Of a stretch of 24,417 nt of DNA, positions 11,216 through 21,015 are shown in pieces. Within the stretch, counting starts at the first letter, position 1. The number at the start of each line of letters is the position of its first letter. The translations under genes were made by a program, and so were the position numbers. The stretch is from a virus. Where the stretch lies: UHGV virus genome UHGV-0187105, one strand, 5' to 3'. Below the pieces are notes generated by a model, which saw only the letters and a list, made by a program, of their open reading frames with translations, made no database searches and was not told the origin of the DNA.

Positions 11216-11896
11216 ATGAAGGGCTTCTGTAATGCCTTACTTCATGAAATTATTTCATCCGGGTTTACGCAGAAAACTTTTCACTTTATGTGCATTATGA
11301 AAATGCCAATTGCGGCATATCTCTGGGAAACTGAAATGATCCATACCGTACACTTCATGACAGATGTGACAGTTGCTTCTGTATCCAGCCTTATGGATGT
11401 TTGCCTCAAAGCGATATCAAGCCCTAACCAACCAGCCTCTGAGATCAGGATTTACATCTCTAGTAAAGGTGGAGATACCGTTGCAGGTTTTACCGCATAC
11501 AACTTTCTTAAGTCTCTTCCTGTAAAGGTGAAGACACATAACCTTAGTAACGTGGAATCTATAGCAAATGTTATTTTCATGGCTGGATCTGAGCGGTTTG
11601 CTAATCCTCTCTCGCGATTTTTATTACATCCTTTACATTGGGGATTTGCCGCCCCACAAGCAGATCACCTCAGGCTTAGGGAATGGGCGGCATGTCTGGA
11701 TGACGACTTGCAAAGATTTGTGCAGGTGATGAATATCGAGGCTCTCGCTGTAGCCCCAGATGAGCAAATTGACTGGGCTAATTTGATCACTTCTGCAACC
11801 ATCATTGATCCGGGAAGGGCCACCGAGTTGGGTATGATCCAGAATGTCGAGGCTGCAACCATACCCACAGATTCGATCAGGTGGTGGGTTCTGTAA
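11216..11896 (+). CDS. ClpP-fold serine protease-like protein (stand-alone moron gene)
   Basis: Core region IRIYISSKGGDTVAGFTAYNFLKSLPVKVKTHNLSNVESIANVIFMAGSERFANPLSRFLLHP aligns by eye to E. coli ClpP [66 protein letters not shown], with Ser and His at the catalytic positions. Opposite strand to all flanking genes; visibly more AT-rich than neighbours (not computed); own downstream terminator. True start uncertain: the 11216 ATG sits in a hairpin loop and an in-frame ATG at 11336 has GGGAAA upstream. Confidence 0.6.
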   Translation: MKGFCNALLHEIISSGFTQKTFHFMCIMKMPIAAYLWETEMIHTVHFMTDVTVASVSSLMDVCLKAISSPNQPASEIRIYISSKGGDTVAGFTAYNFLKSLPVKVKTHNLSNVESIANVIFMAGSERFANPLSRFLLHPLHWGFAAPQADHLRLREWAACLDDDLQRFVQVMNIEALAVAPDEQIDWANLITSATIIDPGRATELGMIQNVEAATIPTDSIRWWVL

Positions 11897-13782: not shown

Positions 13783-14535
13783 CTATCGTGTCACTTTTTG
13801 CAACTGTAACTCTGCGAATGCTTCTTCCTGCCAGCACTTTGTTACCAGTTTATCAATGACGTCTGCATATCCTTTGTACCACTGATAATCCGTCAGGTCT
13901 GGTACCAGCTTCTGGACATGATGCCGCGCCAGTGTGGTTGGTAAACGGCTAAACCGGTTTCCATTGCAACGCCCACAAATCTTATAAACAGGCGTGCCAT
14001 GAAGCCGGGTCCTTTTTTCATCCAGGACAATACCTTTACCCTTACACCCTCTGCACGCTGTGCTGACTTCTCCCTTACCATGACAATGCTGACACAGTTC
14101 CTTCACCCACTCTTCCTTGATAACAGATTCCCCGCTTCTGGAGTGTTTTACCACCTCGCGCAATACATCATGAAATCCAGTACCAGCACAATGCTCACAG
14201 CGAGCCTTACTTGCCGCAGACCTGGAATAATCAGCAAAGGCAAAATTCACAAGGTAAGGGATGATCTGTAACCGGATTTCTTCACTCAATTTGTTCAATG
14301 TCGGGTTATTCAGTGCCATCGCGTAATTGAGCAGACCTTCAATCGCAAACTGAGGGTCCTGAACGCCAACTTTTGCCAGGAATAAGGCAAACCCAAGCGG
14401 TGCTTTCGACTGCACCATCCCCTGCGCAGCCATTACATCCGTAATTGTTAAACCACCCGAGCCTGTCGCCGGTGCGTCATCGCTCAGTTTTGGAGATTTC
14501 GGGGAGTAATATTTCGGTAAGGCTTCAAGGTTCAT
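13783..14535 (-). CDS. Late-gene antiterminator Q (QuuQ-type, zinc-finger repeats)
   Basis: 250 aa with four CxxC-type motifs (CEHCAGTG, CQHCHGKG, CRGCKGKG, CGRCNG), immediately upstream of the promoter/terminator/lysis-cassette arrangement. I recall the family as the 250 aa Qin-prophage QuuQ type. Confidence 0.7.
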   Translation of the reverse strand: MNLEALPKYYSPKSPKLSDDAPATGSGGLTITDVMAAQGMVQSKAPLGFALFLAKVGVQDPQFAIEGLLNYAMALNNPTLNKLSEEIRLQIIPYLVNFAFADYSRSAASKARCEHCAGTGFHDVLREVVKHSRSGESVIKEEWVKELCQHCHGKGEVSTACRGCKGKGIVLDEKRTRLHGTPVYKICGRCNGNRFSRLPTTLARHHVQKLVPDLTDYQWYKGYADVIDKLVTKCWQEEAFAELQLQKVTR

Positions 14536-14548
14536 GCTCGTTCTCCAC

Positions 14549-15544
14549 TTACGCCAGTACGCCTATTGCCAGCGCACGATCGATAAAACGAAATATCAGC
14601 TCCAGCTGGGAACCATACTTCTCTTCAAATGCCACGGTATCCGCATGCAGCTCGTCGTGATGCTTTCTGCACAAAGGCAACACAAAGAGGTCATGCGCTT
14701 TTGTACCCATTCCACCCTGACCGTGGCCTATCAGGTGGTGGGGATCATCAGCAGGCTTTCCACAACATGCACACGGCTGCGTCTTAACCCAGCGCGTGTA
14801 CTTTTCATTAACCCAGCGGCGACGTTTGGGGCGTAACATAAAAGACTCCGGCGACTCCGGATCCACTTTCAGCGCCAGCACCTTTTTCGCCTTATCCTGG
14901 ATGATGCAGGTGGCAGGAACCGAAGGCACAAGGTCACTTTCCCGGGTAACAGACGGCACAACAGGCTTCGGTAATCTCAGTGCCTTACGGGCTGCACTTT
15001 CCGGTAAGGCATCCGCCAGATCATTACGAATCAGCCACCAGCACAGTTCCGGCATTGTCACAACATGACTGTCATCAAAACCGAGATCCCGACGCACAAC
15101 AGACAACACCCAGCGGGCACTGTTATCCGTTGCCATTGATTCCAGCCGTTCCGTGAACTGATCGCGCAGCTGGTTATCGCAGTGCCAGCACAAACGGATT
15201 GCGCCCGGAGCGTGTCGCATTGTTGTCATGTTCTCGCTGTGCCAGTCGGAATGAGGCCACTGGCAGCCTTTTTCACGAAGTAACCAGCTTTCAAGACATT
15301 CCACGCCACCAGCACGATGGATCACTGCCTCATTGCGGAACACGGCCCGAACGGCAGGATCATCCGCCAGCGGTTGTGATGCCGCCGGAACGGCACCACT
15401 GGCGAAAGATGAATAACGTTCCGGCTCAGGCTCCAGCAAGACACGCCCCTGCATAAACAAGGGCATCAGCTCTGAACCTGGTCTGAACAATACGATCCCC
15501 ATACGCGGGGCAATTTCAGGGGTCAGTAGTGCTCTCACGGTCAC
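14549..15544 (-). CDS. DUF968-like protein (YdfU-like) with C-terminal HNH-like Cys/His motif
   Basis: 331 aa; C-terminus PCACCGKPADDPHHLIGHGQGGMGTKAHDLFVLPLCRKHHDELH; position upstream of Q is typical for this family in lambdoid prophages (from memory). Track start is GTG. Confidence 0.6.
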   Translation of the reverse strand: MTVRALLTPEIAPRMGIVLFRPGSELMPLFMQGRVLLEPEPERYSSFASGAVPAASQPLADDPAVRAVFRNEAVIHRAGGVECLESWLLREKGCQWPHSDWHSENMTTMRHAPGAIRLCWHCDNQLRDQFTERLESMATDNSARWVLSVVRRDLGFDDSHVVTMPELCWWLIRNDLADALPESAARKALRLPKPVVPSVTRESDLVPSVPATCIIQDKAKKVLALKVDPESPESFMLRPKRRRWVNEKYTRWVKTQPCACCGKPADDPHHLIGHGQGGMGTKAHDLFVLPLCRKHHDELHADTVAFEEKYGSQLELIFRFIDRALAIGVLA

Positions 15545-15545
15545 C

Positions 15546-16376
15546 TCAATGAACGGTATCGAGCAGCTTTAACAGCTCAGGGAATCGGGATTCGAAGAAA
15601 TGCGGCTGCGTCTCGCGCGGATTTGCGGGACTGGTGATGTTCTTGCCGAACATGCAGCCTTTCGCCGTCAGCGACCAGAATTTTTTGATGTTGTTAATCG
15701 CGGTACGGCTGTATCGTTCGCGCTGTTCGACGATCCCCAGCTTCACCATCTGGTGATATGCCTGATTAGCCGTAAGGCGGATACCATACTGCTTCAGCAG
15801 TGCACTCAATGATAGCGTAGGGCGGCTTGAGCCATCGAGTGCATCAGCAGGAGCATCAATGGCATAGCGCGGTGCCAGATTCGGTAAGCCAACAGCCTCC
15901 TGGTGTTTCTGACAGGCACCAAGCACAGATGAGTTAGACAGGTTTAACTCCCGACGCATAAAGTCCAGCAGAATCACACCAGCCTGCATCTTGTCAGCAG
16001 CCTGTCCGGATAATTTTTCCGGTGCGCTGGTTACCATGTCGAAAGTACGGATCACCTTCAGATGGAATGACGGGCTGATCCACATTGCATAGGCATACAC
16101 CAGTTCTTTGCAGACATACGTCCCCTGGTTATTTCCGCCACGAATAACGTTAACTGGCTCTATATTGACCGAGTTGCAAATCTGCAACTCGCTTATTAAA
16201 CGTTCAGTTTGCTCATTGCGGAGCCAGAATGCAGGCTTATGCTTATCCAGAGAACCGGCAGCCCTGTGCAGATCGTTCAGGCTGTAACGACCATAAGCAT
16301 CACGACGAACTTCAATACCATCAATGACCATCAGATTATTCATACTTCGTTTCTCCTCTTGATCAGGCGGCTGCAC
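15546..16376 (-). CDS. KilA-N domain protein (antirepressor-like)
   Basis: N-terminal region NNLMVIDGIEVRRDAYGRYSLNDLHRAAG...KPAFWLRNEQTERLISEL fits the KilA-N pattern. Track start is GTG at 16376; an ATG at 16343 with GAGGAG about 9 nt upstream is more likely and removes the overlap with rusA. Confidence 0.6.
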   Translation of the reverse strand: MQPPDQEEKRSMNNLMVIDGIEVRRDAYGRYSLNDLHRAAGSLDKHKPAFWLRNEQTERLISELQICNSVNIEPVNVIRGGNNQGTYVCKELVYAYAMWISPSFHLKVIRTFDMVTSAPEKLSGQAADKMQAGVILLDFMRRELNLSNSSVLGACQKHQEAVGLPNLAPRYAIDAPADALDGSSRPTLSLSALLKQYGIRLTANQAYHQMVKLGIVEQRERYSRTAINNIKKFWSLTAKGCMFGKNITSPANPRETQPHFFESRFPELLKLLDTVH

Positions 16377-16752
16377 CCGCCGTTTTCTCGTACTTACTGA
16401 TAGTGATCTCGACCTTCCCTTTCGGGATAACCGGTCCCCACTCCACCAGCATTCTTTTCACCTGACTGTCGTCTTCCCACACACCCGCGTGGGTCAGGGC
16501 GTCAAACAGCGCCTTGTTATAGTTGTCCAGATCGCGGATCCGGTTATCCGGAGGAAACAACACGATCTCCACTGAAGCAGGTGCCGACGTTGGTTTCGGC
16601 AGACGACGTAACTGCTCAACTATTGCTGCACACGCCGCGCTCTGGAATTTGCGCCCCGCTGCGCTTATCAGGCTCTTACCAGCAAACGCCCCTTTGTTGG
16701 GGTGTCGCCAGTACGTGTTCACGCTGGGCGGAAAAGGCAGTATTAGCTTCAT
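16363..16752 (-). CDS. rusA: Holliday junction resolvase RusA
   Basis: 129 aa; motifs LPFPPSVNTYWRH and RIRDLDNYNKALFDALTHAGVWEDDSQV match my recollection of E. coli RusA ([36 protein letters not shown]). Confidence 0.85.
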   Translation of the reverse strand: MKLILPFPPSVNTYWRHPNKGAFAGKSLISAAGRKFQSAACAAIVEQLRRLPKPTSAPASVEIVLFPPDNRIRDLDNYNKALFDALTHAGVWEDDSQVKRMLVEWGPVIPKGKVEITISKYEKTAGAAA

Positions 16753-17075
16753 ACTTTCAGGCCCCTCTCATGTAACCAGTGGGCTGCACGCAGCCTGGCG
16801 TTTTCCTCACCGGCAAGCAGTGAGCGGATAATCCCGACCGCCTCGCTGTCGTCGTCCTTCACCGCGGTATGAAGAGTGATACCACGGGCCACGCCACGCT
16901 TTATCGTGATGACGCCTTTTTTCTCCAGTGCTCTAAGATGCTCCACCGCTGCATTCACTGAACGGTATCCCAGCATGGTTGCCACCTCCTGATTGGTTGG
17001 CGGGAAGCCACGTTCTTTCTGATAAGAAATCAGCATATCCAGCACCTGCTGCTGGCATTGAGTTAACGTCGTCAT
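16749..17075 (-). CDS. LexA-N-terminal-like winged-helix DNA-binding protein (no protease domain)
   Basis: 108 aa; QQQVLDMLISYQKERGFPPTNQEVATMLGYRSVNAAVEHLRALEKKGVI resembles the LexA N-terminal DNA-binding domain ([49 protein letters not shown], from memory). Confidence 0.55.
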   Translation of the reverse strand: MTTLTQCQQQVLDMLISYQKERGFPPTNQEVATMLGYRSVNAAVEHLRALEKKGVITIKRGVARGITLHTAVKDDDSEAVGIIRSLLAGEENARLRAAHWLHERGLKV

Positions 17076-17758
17076 GCCGCCATCTCCCTGACAAGTTTTT
17101 CTGCCTGCTGGCGAACCTGCGCCAGAAAGGCCTCACCACATGCCTCAAGTTCATCGCGCCCGATGTAGCTGATTGCCGGTCCCTTCCAGGTCTTGTCGAA
17201 AACAGCAATAGCACCAGCGAAGAACGCTCCTGTCGGCACCTGCTTCTCGTCCTTCGGGATAAACCAGGCAGGCAGTTCAAAACCAATACGCCCGCGAATA
17301 AAAGCAATATGGTCCGCATCTTCCGGCCACCACACTTCGCTGGTGGCAGCTTTGATCAGGAAAACATAGCGCCCGCCCTTATCACGCATGGCACTGGCAT
17401 GTTTCATGATGTAACGCATGCCGGTGATGTATTGCCCCTCATGCTGACTGGCGCGGCTGTATGGGGGATTACCAAAGGCAGCACCTTTAAGCTCCGCAAG
17501 ACGTTCTGACCAGTCATGCGCCAGCGCGTTGTCTTCCGCCGTGTAATACGCGGCACATTTGGCGTTATCACCGTCAGTGAACAGATCCAGAACAAACGGG
17601 CCAAACAGGGTGTTAATTCCCCAGAAAATGTTGTCCGGCGTGCGCCACTGATCGCCCACTTCCTTCAGTTCATGGGCTGGTTTGTTCCGCAGTTCCACCA
17701 GCGTCTGGCAATATTTATTACTCATTAAGCCCCCACGTAATTCCCTGACAGATACCAC
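17072..17758 (-). CDS. DNA N6-adenine methyltransferase (phage Dam-type)
   Basis: Contains the NPPY catalytic motif (AFGNPPYS). Track start is GTG at 17758; ATG at 17725 overlaps the upstream gene stop (TAATG) and is the likely start. Confidence 0.75.
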   Translation of the reverse strand: MVSVRELRGGLMSNKYCQTLVELRNKPAHELKEVGDQWRTPDNIFWGINTLFGPFVLDLFTDGDNAKCAAYYTAEDNALAHDWSERLAELKGAAFGNPPYSRASQHEGQYITGMRYIMKHASAMRDKGGRYVFLIKAATSEVWWPEDADHIAFIRGRIGFELPAWFIPKDEKQVPTGAFFAGAIAVFDKTWKGPAISYIGRDELEACGEAFLAQVRQQAEKLVREMAA

Positions 17759-18219
17759 TCTTCACCCGATGCAGCGCGCTTGCTGCTTTTCCGTAAGCAC
17801 CGCTCACGACGCGCCAGAAAATTGTTTCGTTCTGGCTGGGAGTGGCTTTCACGGAATGCCGCCATCCACACGGTTGCAGCACGACGGTATAAGCCCCTGG
17901 ACTCCAGTTCTTCCGCCTGGCGGGTCAGGCACAAAATCACACGGGGATCGTTAGTGCCGACATAGAAATTGCGCACAGGTCTGGTTTCACGAACTGGTTG
18001 TGGTTCCGGTTCCTGCGCTCTCTCAGTCAGGCGCGGGAAATGTCTGCGTGTATCTCCTTCACAACGGTGAGCCACACGCCCACTCTGACGTAACTTGCTT
18101 GCTGACTGCAGAACTCGCTGCCGTGAGTAACCTGCAAAAGCATCCGCAATGTCTCCGGAAGTACACCCCGGATGGGCTTCAATGAATTTCTGAACGTCAT
18201 TCAACAGACTCATGATCAC
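17725..18219 (-). CDS. Two-domain regulator: N-terminal winged-helix-like region plus C-terminal PerC-like motif
   Basis: C-terminal QAEELESRGLYRRAATVWMAAF resembles the conserved GL(W/Y)RRAA..W core I recall for PerC/Pch-family activators; the N-terminal half looks like a winged-helix domain. Likely start ATG at 18213. Confidence 0.4.
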   Translation of the reverse strand: MIMSLLNDVQKFIEAHPGCTSGDIADAFAGYSRQRVLQSASKLRQSGRVAHRCEGDTRRHFPRLTERAQEPEPQPVRETRPVRNFYVGTNDPRVILCLTRQAEELESRGLYRRAATVWMAAFRESHSQPERNNFLARRERCLRKSSKRAASGEEWYLSGNYVGA

Positions 18220-19157
18220 CCCCTGAATCCTGCCGGGATCTGGCTGTAGTCCACGTTGTCGTAACTGGCTTTGAAGTACGGGTCTTCGCGTTTTTCGGTG
18301 TACGTGCTGACGGACGGCGATAAGCGCAGGGAAAGCTCATCCCATTTTTCCCGCAGCTTCGACGGGCTGAGCACGTTACGGCACCAGAACGGATCGCGAC
18401 TGACGCGGCTGTACATCTCGCAGATTTGTTTATGAGTACGACCATCCTGCACACACATCAGGCGAATTTCGTTTGCCCAGGCTGTCCAGTTCGGTTCTTT
18501 GGGACGAACCACCTCGCCGTCACATTCGGCGGCCTGCTCGTACAGGGCGATGATTTTTTTCCAGAGCCACTGTGCGCAGGTCAAATCATCCTGCGTTCCC
18601 CACTGGCGCTTTTTAGGGCTGAATACAACCGCATCAGGATGGCGAGTTAAAAACTCCTGTTCAGCCGTCTGCGTGTCCGGTTGCGAAGCGTCCGGACGAG
18701 AAGTTTTTTTATCTGACGGATCATGTTTTGATTTTACTGACGGATCCCCGCCAGATTCTGACGGGTGAAAAACCGCTTTTTTGCCAGATTTCGACGCATC
18801 AAATTTTGACGGGTCAGATTTTGATGCGTCAGATTTTGACGGGTCAGAATCTGACAGTTGAGAAAATGCCGCTGCCTGAAGCTTCGCAACGTTAAGCTGA
18901 TAAACATTCGACGCATTGCGGTTACCCTGGCGACGCGCCTTACGCGTTAACCAGCCTTCTGCTTCCAGCCGTGCGATAGCCGTTCTGACGGTACTCATCC
19001 CCGCGCCAATCTGGCGGGCAATGGTTTCAATTGATGGCCAGCACACACCTTCGTCATTACTGAAATCAGCTAGGCGGGCCATAATTGCCACGCTGGATAA
19101 TTTCATGCCTGACGCAGCGCAACCATCCCATACATAGCCGGTTAATTTAGTGCTCAT
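18216..19157 (-). CDS. Replication initiator, O-like (N-terminal HTH; iteron array inside coding sequence)
   Basis: 313 aa at the position of lambda O, after the cro-proximal genes; N-terminal winged-helix-like domain; the central linker SDPSKSDASKSDPSKFDASKSGKK is encoded by tandem 15-bp DNA repeats, as the lambda ori iterons are inside O. Confidence 0.55.
   Translation of the reverse strand: MSTKLTGYVWDGCAASGMKLSSVAIMARLADFSNDEGVCWPSIETIARQIGAGMSTVRTAIARLEAEGWLTRKARRQGNRNASNVYQLNVAKLQAAAFSQLSDSDPSKSDASKSDPSKFDASKSGKKAVFHPSESGGDPSVKSKHDPSDKKTSRPDASQPDTQTAEQEFLTRHPDAVVFSPKKRQWGTQDDLTCAQWLWKKIIALYEQAAECDGEVVRPKEPNWTAWANEIRLMCVQDGRTHKQICEMYSRVSRDPFWCRNVLSPSKLREKWDELSLRLSPSVSTYTEKREDPYFKASYDNVDYSQIPAGFRG
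18713..18855. repeat. Iteron-like tandem direct repeats (candidate origin of replication)
   Basis: At least six degenerate 15-bp units of form TGAYGSRTCAGATTT (e.g. cgacgcatcaaattt, tgacgggtcagattt, tgatgcgtcagattt, tgacgggtcagaatc) in phase with the O-like reading frame; short T-rich tract at 18700-18711. Confidence 0.6.
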
Positions 19158-19166
19158 GACCGACCT

Positions 19167-19505
19167 CTATTTCCCTGAATTTACGACGAAACTGTTCGAG
19201 CGGGCTGAAGCACTCATGCTCATAGCCTTCGCGGAGGTAGATAACCCGTTGTGTTTCCGGTTCCCAACGAATGACTCTGACGGGCACTCCGTAGTGATCT
19301 TTGAACCAGCGGTTAACTTGTCGCAAAGGACTGTCTCCTTCTGCCGGTTGAAATCACCCACAGCCCACTCAGCAAAGCTGTGGGTTACAATTTCCCTGTC
19401 ACCTGGTACATTCACTGCATAGCAATACTCCACCTTCGCTTTTCCACCCGGTACAGGAAGTGCAATCAGTTGCGAGCGACGGTAGTGTGTTGTTAAACTG
19501 TTCAT
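19167..19505 (-). CDS. Hypothetical protein (112 aa)
   Basis: ATGA start/stop overlap with the upstream gene and 10-nt gap to the O-like gene suggest translational coupling in the early-right operon. No family recognised. Confidence 0.45.
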
Positions 19506-20167
19506 GCGTTAGTTTCTCCACAGTCACGACACGCCACGGCGCCCGGAGCTGCACACTCGCGGGCGTCATTACTTTCTGAAATGCAAAAAATTTTGTAGAC
19601 CAGTGCTGCATGCTCCTGCAGCTTCGAAATTGAGAGATACAGCTCGTCGTTAATTGCTGTCTTCTCATGCGGTTCCACCACACCGTCTTCGATTGCCGAA
19701 CGAATCTGTCTGGAATAACTGCCAATCTGTTCAATGACTTCCAGCAGGCGCTGGTTAATATCGGCGTTGTCCACATCCTCGACGTCAGGAAGAGACACAA
19801 AGACGCCATTTGCAGACTGCGCCACAGCGTCAGCAATGAAGTGAGTTCCACCAGCACGTTGCAAAATCATTGCCCATCCCAGCGGGAAAATCTGATCGCC
19901 ATCGGCACGAAGGCGGTTAAATAATGCGTTTTCTGTTACATCCAGCCAGTCAGCTGCTTCAGCGTAACCACCCGGCAACGCTGCGATAGTTTTTCTGACA
20001 GCTTTCACGTACCACTCAGGCTGTTTTTCTACTTTCCAGTGATGCTTACCCACGGTTAGCCTCATCGTTCTGTGGTTTCTGTTAATCGATTTATCCATTA
20101 GATTTTTCATAAAGCTCAGGTTTAAATGGCAACCGTCCGCAAGTTCTATATGCAGCTTCTGCTGCAC
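19502..20167 (-). CDS. Early regulatory protein, CII/YdaT-like by position (family uncertain)
   Basis: 221 aa ORF directly downstream of the cro-like gene; annotated start overlaps cro by 77 nt, so the true start may be an internal Met (20110 or 20098). Confidence 0.4.
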
Positions 20168-20291
20168 GTCCTTTTGGAATTAACTGGCCCGGACGGTTTC
20201 GCCACTGATAAACGGCTTCAGTTGTTATGCCGAAAAAAGCAGCAACTTTCTCAATACTGCCGAAGTAGCTTTCGATATCGTCAGTTGTCAT
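20091..20291 (-). CDS. Cro-like HTH repressor (Cro/YdaS-type)
   Basis: 66 aa; HTH segment VAAFFGITTEAVYQWRNR; divergent from the CI-type repressor across a 97-bp operator region; GGAGG 4 nt upstream of the ATG. Confidence 0.7.
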   Translation of the reverse strand: MTTDDIESYFGSIEKVAAFFGITTEAVYQWRNRPGQLIPKGRAAEAAYRTCGRLPFKPELYEKSNG

Positions 20292-20388
20292 ACGCCCTCC
20301 AAACTAAGTTTTATTAGATGCTAATTACAAATCTATCTTTGGTCAATAAAAACTAAGATTACTTAGCAATTCAAGAAATGGTGCTCCT
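20292..20388. promoter_or_regulatory. Divergent immunity control region (OR-like operators with candidate pR)
   Basis: Repeated ACTAAG-core motifs (aaactaagtttt at 20301-20312; palindrome CTAAG-atta-CTTAG at 20353-20366). Candidate rightward promoter on the minus strand: TTGACC (20346-20341) - 17 nt - TAGCAT (20323-20318). Confidence 0.55.
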
Positions 20389-21015
20389 ATGGAAACGGTT
20401 GGTCAGCGTATAAAAGCTCTGAGAAGAGTTACCGGAACGTCCCAGAAAGAATTGGGTAAATTTTGTGGAGTAAGCGACGTTGCTGTGGGGTACTGGGAGA
20501 AAGACATCAATACCCCTGGTGGGGAGGCACTTTCGAAATTAGCGAAGTTCTTCAATACGTCAATAGATTACATTCTTTATGGTGCTGAGTTTGAAGGCAA
20601 ACTCGTCACAAACATGCGCAGAGTTCCTGTAATATCGTGGGTTCAGGCTGGGCAGTTTACTGAGTGCAGGGCAGCAGAAGTGTTTAGTGAAGTGGACAAG
20701 TGGGTAGATACATCATTAAAGATTGGTGATAACTCATTTGCATTAGAGGTTAAAGGTGACTCCATGACTAACCCTAATGGCCTCCCAACAATACCAGAAG
20801 GCGCAACAGTGATTGTAGATCCAGATGCAGAACCTCGTCATGGAAAAATAGTCATCGCTCGACTTGATGGAACAAACGAAGCTACAGTTAAAAAATTAGT
20901 CATCGATGGCCCTCAAAAGTTTTTAGTGCCATTAAATCCTCGGTATCCCAACATCCCTATCAATGGTAATTGCCTTATCATTGGTGTAGTCAAAGGAGTT
21001 CAATACGAACTCTAA
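20389..21015 (+). CDS. CI-type phage repressor (N-terminal HTH, C-terminal S24 LexA-like autopeptidase)
   Basis: 208 aa; N-terminal HTH (GTSQKELGKFCGVSDVAVGYWE); C-terminal domain with GDSM serine motif and a downstream Lys (VKKL) consistent with the Ser-Lys dyad of self-cleaving repressors. Confidence 0.85.
   Translation: METVGQRIKALRRVTGTSQKELGKFCGVSDVAVGYWEKDINTPGGEALSKLAKFFNTSIDYILYGAEFEGKLVTNMRRVPVISWVQAGQFTECRAAEVFSEVDKWVDTSLKIGDNSFALEVKGDSMTNPNGLPTIPEGATVIVDPDAEPRHGKIVIARLDGTNEATVKKLVIDGPQKFLVPLNPRYPNIPINGNCLIIGVVKGVQYEL

What the first reader, a model, noticed from the sequence alone, without database searches (positions are those of the whole stretch)
17725..19157. No helicase-loader gene follows the replication initiator; a PerC-like regulator occupies that slot
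In lambda-type replication modules the initiator is followed by a P or DnaC-like helicase loader. Here the next gene (17725..18219) has no Walker A motif and instead carries a C-terminal segment resembling the PerC/Pch activator core, after an N-terminal winged-helix-like region. Prophage-encoded PerC homologues are known to cross-regulate host virulence loci in pathogenic E. coli. Either replication uses host loading factors directly, or the module is non-canonical.
Basis: partly seen in the sequence, partly recalled or inferred. Interest (0 to 1): 0.45.

Follow-up and report, generated by a model that had tools for sequence, protein, structure and literature searches.

The report
Loader-less phage replication module with YfdN
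This is the well-known SfV/SfII-type prophage replication region, where the origin-binding protein is followed by the already-annotated PerC-family gene yfdN instead of a helicase loader; the initiator ends in the same short tail as the host protein DnaT, which suggests it borrows the host's own loader DnaC.

Summary
On the minus strand, 18216-19157 encodes a 313-aa initiator with origin repeats inside the gene. 17725-18219 encodes a 164-aa protein with no Walker A motif, an N-terminal winged helix and a C-terminal PerC core (Pfam PF06069, 36.1 bits against a cut-off of 22.6). No helicase or loader gene lies anywhere in the window.

None of this is new. The gene is yfdN, named "PerC family transcriptional regulator" in RefSeq. 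It is matched in 2733 of 5426 complete E. coli genomes and in the viable phages SfII, SfIV, SfV and mEp460.

What I add concerns the initiator's tail. Its body resembles the lambda O C-terminal domain, and it ends in a disordered tail, ...QIPAGFRG, that matches the end of E. coli DnaT (...QIPPGFRG).
- Every initiator upstream of a DnaC-type loader carries this tail (78 of 78 viral loci).
- No initiator upstream of lambda P does (0 of 79), nor upstream of an IstB-like loader plus DnaB (0 of 38).
- Close relatives of this initiator with a lambda-type tail are followed by P. Those with the GFRG tail are followed by dnaC, by yfdN, or by neither.

Most likely the module uses host DnaB-DnaC, and YfdN is an accessory regulator rather than a loader substitute.

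The parts
18216..19157 (-). Replication initiator, 313 aa. It has an N-terminal HTH_36 winged helix, a disordered linker encoded by the origin repeats, a lambda-O-like helical C-terminal domain and a disordered tail.
   Evidence: Pfam HTH_36 E 4e-11. PHROG 391 'replication initiation O-like' E 7e-135. Residues 131-277 are 35% identical to lambda O residues 139-270, E 6e-25. AF2 model m3bb40327f855: 1-98 folded, 102-161 pLDDT below 40, 162-280 pLDDT 85-95, 283-311 pLDDT about 45.
18708..18864 (.). Putative origin. An array of about 8-10 repeats with a 15-bp period (consensus about CCGTCAAAATCTGAC, with internal dyad symmetry) lies inside the initiator gene and is followed by an A-rich tract. 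It encodes the DPSKSDASKS linker.
   Evidence: the repeat finder families D1-D4 and D7 and inverted repeats I1-I7; sequence read; GC drops to 0.30-0.43. The arrangement is the same as the lambda ori iterons inside gene O (annotation). Origin function is inferred, not shown.
18219..18311 (-). Flexible C-terminal tail of the initiator (residues 283-313). It ends in ...VDYSQIPAGFRG, the same terminal motif as E. coli DnaT (...EPDSQIPPGFRG). Proposed recruitment peptide for the DnaC-type loader.
   Evidence: In the alignment with DnaT, D, I, P, G, F, R and G are invariant. Low pLDDT. Codons vary synonymously between lineages. Association with DnaC-type loaders: 78/78 against 0/79 and 0/38. Binding itself is inferred.
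17725..18219 (-). yfdN, 164 aa: a winged helix (residues 2-62), a disordered acidic and proline-rich linker (65-85), a three-helix PerC-like domain (92-151), and a conserved C-terminal YLSGNYVG motif.
   Evidence: Pfam PerC above threshold. RefSeq names it 'yfdN: PerC family transcriptional regulator'. AF2 model. Family alignment A8. Its start overlaps the initiator's stop codon.
17072..17758 (-). Phage N6-adenine DNA methyltransferase (Dam family), the next gene downstream. RefSeq starts it at about 17725.
   Evidence: Pfam Dam E 1e-45 and TIGR01712 E 2e-76. RefSeq annotation.
19147..19326 (-). Small DUF4222 gene whose end overlaps the initiator's start. It is kept upstream of related initiators in other genera.
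   Evidence: Pfam DUF4222 E 9e-19. Found in the same position in Klebsiella and Pantoea loci.
19502..21015 (.). Immunity and early-control region that drives the operon: cII/YmfL-like (19502-20167, -), cro-like (20091-20291, -) and a cI/LexA-like repressor (20389-21015, +).
   Evidence: Pfam Phage_CP76 and NCBIfam YmfL. Annotation of near-identical records.

Best explanation
The region is the early-right replication module of an SfV/SfII/mEp460-type temperate phage.

Proposed mechanism:
1. The 313-aa initiator binds the repeats inside its own gene through its winged helix. This is inferred by analogy with lambda O.
2. The phage encodes no helicase and no loader, so it must use host DnaB. That much follows directly from the gene content.
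3. The initiator recruits host DnaB-DnaC through its flexible C-terminal IPxGFRG tail. This tail is the same peptide that ends E. coli DnaT, and it ends every phage initiator found upstream of a DnaC-type loader. The module is therefore a DnaC-class lambdoid replicon that has lost, or never needed, its own dnaC copy. This is inferred from comparative association.
4. YfdN, translated from an overlapping start, is a winged-helix plus PerC-domain protein. It most likely acts as an accessory transcription regulator or protein-binding modulator expressed early in lytic growth. It is not a helicase loader and is not obligatory for this class of initiator. This is inferred from its domain content and from relatives that lack it.
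For: Gene content:
- No loader or helicase in the window.
- None among the annotated early genes of phage SfII.

The module works. Near-identical copies occur in isolated phages SfII, SfIV, SfV, mEp460, Ayreon and PhiR49.

Tail evidence:
- The tail matches the DnaT terminus.
- DnaT's last 20 residues or so are a flexible tail with no assigned role (PMC5778457 section 18). How DnaT recruits DnaB/DnaC is still unknown (PMC13377028 section 12).
- Upstream of DnaC-type genes, 78 of 78 ORFs end in [IV]PPGF[RK]G, across at least four initiator architectures plus DnaT itself.
- Upstream of lambda P, 0 of 79 do; they end in TDWIYGV[DE]L. Upstream of an IstB-like loader plus DnaB, 0 of 38 do; they end in DYGxxxxNW.

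Series within the window initiator's own family (A10):
- 59-62% identical E. coli relatives with the EIPPGFRG tail are followed by a PF01695 DnaC-type gene.
- A 75% identical Pantoea relative with a lambda-O-like tail, and a 58% identical Rahnella relative with another non-GFRG tail (...SPEAWENTL), are each followed by Phage_lambda_P.
- GFR-tailed relatives with no loader are followed by yfdN (Salmonella), a D12 methylase (Klebsiella) or a ParB-like protein (Pantoea).

Other support:
- POCJ13-type initiators with the same tail occur both with dnaC (about 30 loci) and without it (about 45 loci).
- Phage DnaC is 50% identical to E. coli DnaC.
- The named hits to the initiator and YfdN families come from Enterobacterales. 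In this order dnaC is a domesticated phage gene (PMC5109545).
- Tail codons vary synonymously, and the tail is kept even where a 40-nt spacer follows it.

YfdN: no ATPase motif; only winged-helix and PerC matches.
Against: - No experiment or complex prediction shows the tail binding DnaC. The association comes from samples dominated by close relatives and is not phylogenetically corrected.
- The tail could bind DnaB, PriA/PriB or something else.
- yfdN-type genes were always found directly after a GFRG-tailed initiator, usually with overlapping stop and start codons. This holds even at 25% YfdN identity in Klebsiella phages and fits a functional partnership.
- yfdN occupies the exact position that P holds in the Pantoea and Rahnella relatives.
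- Many loader-less relatives are prophages whose viability is unknown.
- YfdN's regulatory activity has never been measured in the papers I could read. It was only deleted as a precaution in a ler reporter strain (PMC5931665).
Confidence: 0.6

Rival explanations
1. YfdN is a replication protein. It would act as a non-ATPase adaptor playing the role of lambda P, bridging the initiator and host DnaB or DnaB-DnaC, or remodelling the origin complex. The PerC-like domain would be a protein-interaction module.
For: - Strict synteny and overlapping stop and start codons with GFRG-tailed initiators of several architectures, across YfdN divergence down to 25% identity.
- It lies between initiator and dam, exactly where P lies in the Pantoea and Rahnella relatives.
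- Lambda P is also a non-AAA+ protein (established knowledge).
Against: - Homologous GFR-tailed initiators exist with neither loader nor yfdN: Klebsiella P0261 with 1615 member sequences, Pantoea, and about 45 POCJ13-type loci.
- The domain content is that of a regulator.
- No similarity to P, DnaC, DnaT_C or DciA.
- Other lambdoid modules place winged-helix proteins such as Ren, LygF/DUF977 and DUF1627 after their loaders.
Confidence: 0.2
2. The tail does not contact DnaC directly. Instead it plugs the initiator into the PriA/PriB restart primosome, mimicking DnaT, so that helicase loading at the phage origin depends on PriA.
For: - The tail is shared with DnaT.
- DnaT's known partners are PriA, PriB and ssDNA (PMC13377028 sections 7-9; PMC5778457).
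- SfV- and POCJ13-type initiators also carry a domain resembling the DnaT C-terminal domain in alignment A4. The DnaT_C motif has been noted before in O-like proteins (PMC5509034).
Against: - The mapped PriA and PriB contacts use the DnaT three-helix domain and the linker, and the sections I read do not mention the tail (PMC13377028 sections 6-9).
- The window initiator has a lambda-O-like C-terminal domain, not a DnaT_C domain.
- The tail tracks with the type of loader gene next door. That is hard to explain if the partner were PriA, which every host has.
Confidence: 0.12
3. The shared tail is a nucleotide-level constraint or a recombination scar, for example a ribosome-binding site for the downstream gene. 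It would have no protein function, and the missing loader would simply mark a defective or helper-dependent prophage.
For: - The codons ...TTC AGG GGG TGA contain a Shine-Dalgarno-like AGGGGG just before the next start.
- Stx2c and SfV phages share 98% identical DNA from yfdN into the last 27 codons of a different initiator, which indicates a recombination joint there.
Against: - Synonymous differences occur at most tail codons across lineages (ATC/ATT, CCG/CCA, GGA/GGG/GGT/GGC, AGG/AGA/CGG). The tail is also kept in 640R1-type phages, where a 40-nt spacer and a separate RBS follow it, and in host dnaT.
- Phages with this module have been isolated and propagated: SfII, SfIV, SfV, mEp460 and Ayreon on K-12 (PMC3851460).
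Confidence: 0.05

Closest known systems
Replication modules of Shigella/E. coli phages SfV, SfII, SfIV and mEp460, and the K-12 CPS-53 remnant (yfdO-yfdN-yfdM)
   Same: DNA is 97-99% identical over initiator, yfdN, dam and the LexA-like gene, in the same order. RefSeq labels the genes 'helix-turn-helix domain-containing protein' and 'yfdN: PerC family transcriptional regulator'.
   Different: Essentially nothing; the window is another copy. SfV and the Stx2c phages pair the same yfdN with a different 272-aa initiator that keeps the same last 27 residues. SfIV lacks dam (PMC3851460).
Lambda O-P replication module
   Same: The initiator gene contains the origin repeats. The window initiator's C-terminal domain is homologous to the lambda O C-terminal domain (35% identity, E 6e-25). 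The position after cII in the rightward operon is the same.
   Different: There is no P gene. The N-terminal DNA-binding domain is HTH_36 rather than the lambda O type. The extreme C-terminus is IPAGFRG rather than TDWIYGVDL. A wHTH-PerC protein follows, rather than P and then Ren.
DnaC-type lambdoid modules (POCJ13, many E. coli prophages) and the host dnaT-dnaC operon
   Same: The same C-terminal tail on the upstream protein. Full-length homologues of the window initiator (59-62% identity) are followed by a DnaC-type gene. Phage DnaC is 50% identical to E. coli DnaC.
   Different: The window has no dnaC copy. DnaT has no origin-binding domain and works with PriA and PriB.
PerC of EPEC and PchA-C of EHEC (Pfam PF06069)
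   Same: The C-terminal helical core matches the family model above threshold, and the gene is prophage-borne.
   Different: YfdN is 164 aa, with an added N-terminal winged helix and linker, and only model positions 5-56 of 90 are matched. No activity on ler or LEE has been reported for it. PchE and PchD, the other divergent members, have little effect on ler (PMC5931665). PchE lies on a P4-like element and is not the YfdN orthologue (PMC3378721).

Membership tests
PerC family (Pfam PF06069) | Sequence match to the family profile above the curated gathering score | tested here: met
   36.1 bits against a cut-off of 22.6, E 7.8e-9, residues 100-151 on model positions 5-56 of 90. Precomputed PF06069 on nearly all homologues.
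PerC family (Pfam PF06069) | Small single-domain protein of about 90-105 aa, as in PerC and PchA-C | tested here: not met
   164 aa, with a separate N-terminal winged helix (residues 2-62) and a disordered linker. PerC-only proteins of 80-92 aa match only residues 96-163.
PerC family (Pfam PF06069) | Activates the LEE1/ler promoter | not testable with these tools
   No assay of YfdN was found. It was only deleted from a ler::lacZ reporter strain (PMC5931665).
ANR (AraC negative regulator) family, NF033650 | Match above NCBIfam's curated cut-off | tested here: not met
   23.6 bits against a cut-off of 32, residues 98-144. This is a resemblance only.
DnaC/IstB-type helicase loader (PF01695) | AAA+ domain with a Walker A motif and a profile match | tested here: not met
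   No Walker A motif in YfdN or the initiator. No PF01695 hit for any ORF tested in the window. Positive controls from other phages do hit.
Lambda P-type loader (PF06992) | Profile or sequence match to lambda P | tested here: not met
   No Pfam hit. BLASTP of YfdN against lambda P gives only 5-8 residue chance matches. PF06992 is found next to relatives of the initiator in Pantoea and Rahnella.
Lambda O-like initiator | Origin repeats inside the gene and a C-terminal domain homologous to lambda O | tested here: met
   Repeat array with a 15-bp period at 18708-18864. C-terminal domain 35% identical to lambda O 139-270, E 6e-25. PHROG 391 'O-like'.
Lambda O-like initiator | Lambda-type N-terminal DNA-binding domain and a P-binding C-terminus | tested here: not met
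   The N-terminus is HTH_36/DnaD_N-like. BLASTP aligns only the C-terminal domain to lambda O. The terminus is IPAGFRG, not TDWIYGVDL.
DnaT (primosomal protein I) | C-terminal flexible tail ending in IPPGFRG | tested here: met
   In alignment A4, D, I, P, G, F, R and G are invariant. The tail is disordered in the model.
DnaT (primosomal protein I) | DnaT three-helix ssDNA-binding domain and the trimerising N-terminal domain | tested here: not met
   No DnaT family hit in Pfam or NCBIfam for the window initiator. Its C-terminal domain is lambda-O-like. It shares a motif with DnaT but is not a DnaT family member.
Ren-like winged-helix proteins (PHROG 142) | Profile match and a position just after the replication genes | tested here: inconclusive
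   PHROG 142 E 0.0097 for residues 3-69. The YfdN profile gives only 9 bits on lambda Ren and 25-27 bits on the DUF1627 proteins that follow DnaC. This is generic winged-helix similarity.

The most novel reading that the evidence does not exclude
Initiators of lambdoid replicons may carry short, interchangeable C-terminal peptides that specify which helicase-loading system they recruit:
- TDWIYGV[DE]L with lambda P;
- DYGxxxxNW with an IstB-like loader plus phage DnaB;
- IPxGFRG with DnaC.

The IPPGFRG tail of host DnaT would then be the long-sought element by which the restart primosome recruits DnaB-DnaC. It would have been inherited, together with dnaC, from a phage initiator-dnaC cassette. 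Loader-less modules like this one would be viable only in DnaC-bearing hosts.
Probability: 0.4. Interest if true: 0.6.

Novelty: already known. Interest (0 to 1): 0.3.

Why it matters

The useful by-product is a concrete hypothesis that can be tested cheaply. It would explain why this widespread phage group needs no loader gene. It bears on an acknowledged gap, namely how DnaT hands the restart primosome over to DnaB-DnaC. It would also give a simple sequence rule for predicting the host-factor dependence of temperate phage replicons in Enterobacterales.

YfdN itself remains an uncharacterised PerC-family protein present in about half of E. coli genomes. That matters for anyone who uses K-12 as a 'PerC-free' background.

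Tried and rejected
- **YfdN's PerC-like domain related to the DnaT three-helix domain.** A 26-residue BLASTP match (E 0.018) suggested this. Profile-profile comparison was negative (probability 0.05), so I rejected it.
- **YfdN is the O157 PchE orthologue.** Rejected. PchE lies on the P4-like island OI-51.
- **Solved structures related to YfdN beyond the winged helix.** None found by sequence, profile or Foldseek. None was found for the initiator's C-terminal domain either.
- **AlphaFold database fold search.** The library was unavailable.
- **Defence-system profiles (PADLOC).** Nothing meaningful.
- **Literature.** The SfV genome paper and Porter et al. 2005 are not held. A search for 'initiator-solo' found no paper that uses the term. 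No held paper assigns a function to the DnaT tail.
- **Defective-prophage explanation.** Rejected, because phages carrying the module have been isolated.
Full report
**What is in the window.** The window is a prophage. On the minus strand it reads tail sheath, capsid, protease, portal and terminase genes, then lysis genes. The early-right genes follow: Q antiterminator (13783-14535), DUF968/HNH (14549-15544), KilA-N (15546-16376), RusA (16363-16752), a LexA DNA-binding-domain protein (16749-17075), Dam (17072-17758), the 164-aa protein (17725-18219), the 313-aa initiator (18216-19157), DUF4222 (19147-19326), a cII/YmfL-like protein (19502-20167) and cro (20091-20291). The cI-like repressor lies on the plus strand at 20389-21015.

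**Checking the observation.** The ORFs are at the stated coordinates.
- The 164-aa protein has no Walker A motif.
- Pfam places residues 100-151 in PerC (PF06069) at 36.1 bits, above the gathering score of 22.6. PHROGs calls the family a transcriptional activator. NCBIfam's ANR model is approached but not reached, at 23.6 against 32 bits.
- An AlphaFold2 model (pLDDT 77) shows a winged helix in residues 2-62, a disordered linker in 65-85 and three helices in 92-151.
- Foldseek and a family profile find only MarR/ArsR/BlaI-type winged helices among solved structures.
- No ORF in the window matches a helicase or a loader family.

**It is already known.**
- The 2.4-kb stretch is 97-99% identical to phages SfII, SfIV, mEp460 and several recently isolated E. 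coli phages. SfV and the Stx2c phages share the yfdN-dam part.
- It is matched in 2733 of 5426 complete E. coli genomes.
- RefSeq names the two genes 'helix-turn-helix domain-containing protein' and 'yfdN: PerC family transcriptional regulator'. SfII annotates 'O protein family protein' and 'PerC transcriptional activator family protein'.
- One paper calls yfdN 'the K12 unique PerC homologue' and deletes it from a ler reporter strain (PMC5931665).
- The SfIV genome paper lists the replication module without commenting on the missing loader (PMC3851460).

**Anatomy of the initiator.** It has four parts.
- An N-terminal HTH_36 winged helix (model).
- A disordered linker encoded by an array of 15-bp repeats at 18708-18864, each with internal dyad symmetry, followed by an A-rich tract. 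This is the lambda arrangement, with the origin inside the initiator gene.
- A helical C-terminal domain homologous to that of lambda O (35% identity, E 6e-25).
- A disordered tail of about 30 residues ending in ...VDYSQIPAGFRG.

**The tail.** The same terminal motif ends initiators that are otherwise very different:
- the 272-aa SfV/Stx2c/ST64B type;
- the Phg_2220_C type of Salmonella phage F1055 and Klebsiella phage Kp4866-6;
- the POCJ13 type.

It also ends E. coli DnaT, whose gene lies immediately upstream of dnaC. Tail codons differ synonymously between lineages. The tail is kept even where a 40-nt spacer follows it, so the constraint acts on the protein.

In the literature I could read, DnaT's last 20 residues or so are described as a highly flexible tail with no assigned partner (PMC5778457). 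How DnaT recruits DnaB-DnaC is said to remain unknown (PMC13377028; PMC4132743). A DnaT C-terminal motif in O-like proteins has been noted before (PMC5509034). The terminal peptide itself was not singled out there.

**Tail type tracks loader type.** I fetched IMG/VR loci around each kind of loader gene and read the upstream ORF's terminus.

| Downstream gene | Upstream ORFs ending in the GFRG-type tail | Terminus otherwise seen |
|---|---|---|
| DnaC-type loader | 78 of 78 ([IV]PPGF[RK]G), at least four initiator architectures plus two dnaT-dnaC loci (DnaT and DnaC 93-100% identical to E. coli) filed in the viral collection | - |
| Lambda P | 0 of 79 | TDWIYGV[DE]L |
| IstB-like loader plus DnaB | 0 of 38 | DYGxxxxNW |

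Within the window initiator's own family, the body is conserved up to ...SPSKLREKWDELxLRL and only the tail changes (alignment A10).

| Relative | Identity to window | Tail | Next gene(s) |
|---|---|---|---|
| Pantoea P0254 | 75% | ...DNTDWIYGIEEDL... (lambda-O-like) | Phage_lambda_P, then Dam |
| Rahnella P0309 | 58% | ...SPEAWENTL | Phage_lambda_P, then Dam |
| E. coli P0307 and IMG/VR loci L270, L273, L277 | 59-62% | EIPPGFRG | DnaC-type gene |
| Salmonella P0229 | 85% | QIPTGFRG | yfdN-like gene, then Dam |
| Klebsiella P0261 | 75% | LPENSGFRT | D12 methylase (no loader, no yfdN) |
| Pantoea P0284, P0286 | 66-67% | TP[AE]GFRGY | ParB-like protein (no loader, no yfdN) |

POCJ13-type initiators with the same tail occur with dnaC in about 30 loci and without it in about 45. 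Phage DnaC is 50% identical to host DnaC.

**Inference.** The window's module belongs to the DnaC class and lacks its own dnaC. The simplest mechanism is recruitment of host DnaB-DnaC, with the tail as the likely contact.
- Shown: the absence of a loader, the homologies and the associations.
- Inferred: the binding partner and the host dependence.
- Caveat: the samples contain many close relatives and are not phylogenetically corrected.

**What YfdN is.**
- The two-domain family is small: 99 hits among 1.84 billion representative proteins, of which roughly 25-30 are full-length two-domain clusters.
- Wherever I looked it directly follows a GFRG-tailed initiator, usually with overlapping stop and start codons. 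This holds even at 25% identity in Klebsiella phages. That linkage keeps alive the rival reading that it works with the initiator.
- Against that rival stand the loader-less relatives without yfdN, the regulator-type domain content, and the habit of other lambdoid modules of placing winged-helix proteins after their loaders. Examples are Ren after P, and DUF1627 and DUF977/LygF after DnaC. The sequence similarity to Ren is weak and generic.
- PerC-family biology is documented for PchA-C acting on ler. PchD and PchE have little effect on ler (PMC5931665, PMC6265319). Nothing is documented for YfdN.

**Verdict.** The one new lead is the loader-specific C-terminal tail shared with DnaT, which offers a testable account of why no loader gene is needed.

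Noticed in passing
Loci L278-L357, L358-L395, L198-L277; window 18219-18239: Initiators seem to carry loader-specific C-terminal peptides: TDWIYGV[DE]L upstream of lambda P, DYGxxxxNW upstream of an IstB-like loader plus DnaB, and [IV]PPGFRG upstream of DnaC-type genes and at the end of host DnaT. The tails are swapped on otherwise conserved initiator bodies (A10).
   Followed up: partly
window 16749-17075 (-): A 108-aa protein consisting only of a LexA DNA-binding domain (Pfam LexA_DNA_bind E 3e-19; matches LexA residues 1-91), with no S24 peptidase domain. It could be an uncleavable LexA mimic expressed from the early operon.
   Followed up: no
window 11216-11896 (+): A plus-strand ORF with a partial ClpP protease match (E 7e-12) lies between the terminase and lysis genes, in a stretch of lower GC (about 0.45-0.49). 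It looks like a moron.
   Followed up: no
window 18675-18854; alignment A10 columns about 100-165: The repeat-encoded linker of the initiator varies in length between relatives by whole SKSD(A/T)-type units. Origin repeat number therefore changes together with the protein linker.
   Followed up: no
Proteins P0026, P0028, P0032, P0039: 234-aa database proteins carry both HTH_36 and PerC Pfam hits. They appear to be in-frame fusions of the initiator's N-terminus to YfdN's C-terminus, arising from deletions or assembly artefacts.
   Followed up: no
window 19147-19326 (-); L397, L398, L400, L408: A small DUF4222 gene overlaps the start of the initiator and keeps that position upstream of related initiators in Klebsiella and Pantoea, whatever follows the initiator.
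   Followed up: no
L003 7217-8035 versus window 18216-18300: SfV/Stx2c-type and window-type initiators differ throughout except for the last 27 residues, which are identical. The DNA is 98% identical from there into yfdN and dam, so a recombination joint lies inside the 3' end of the initiator gene.
   Followed up: partly
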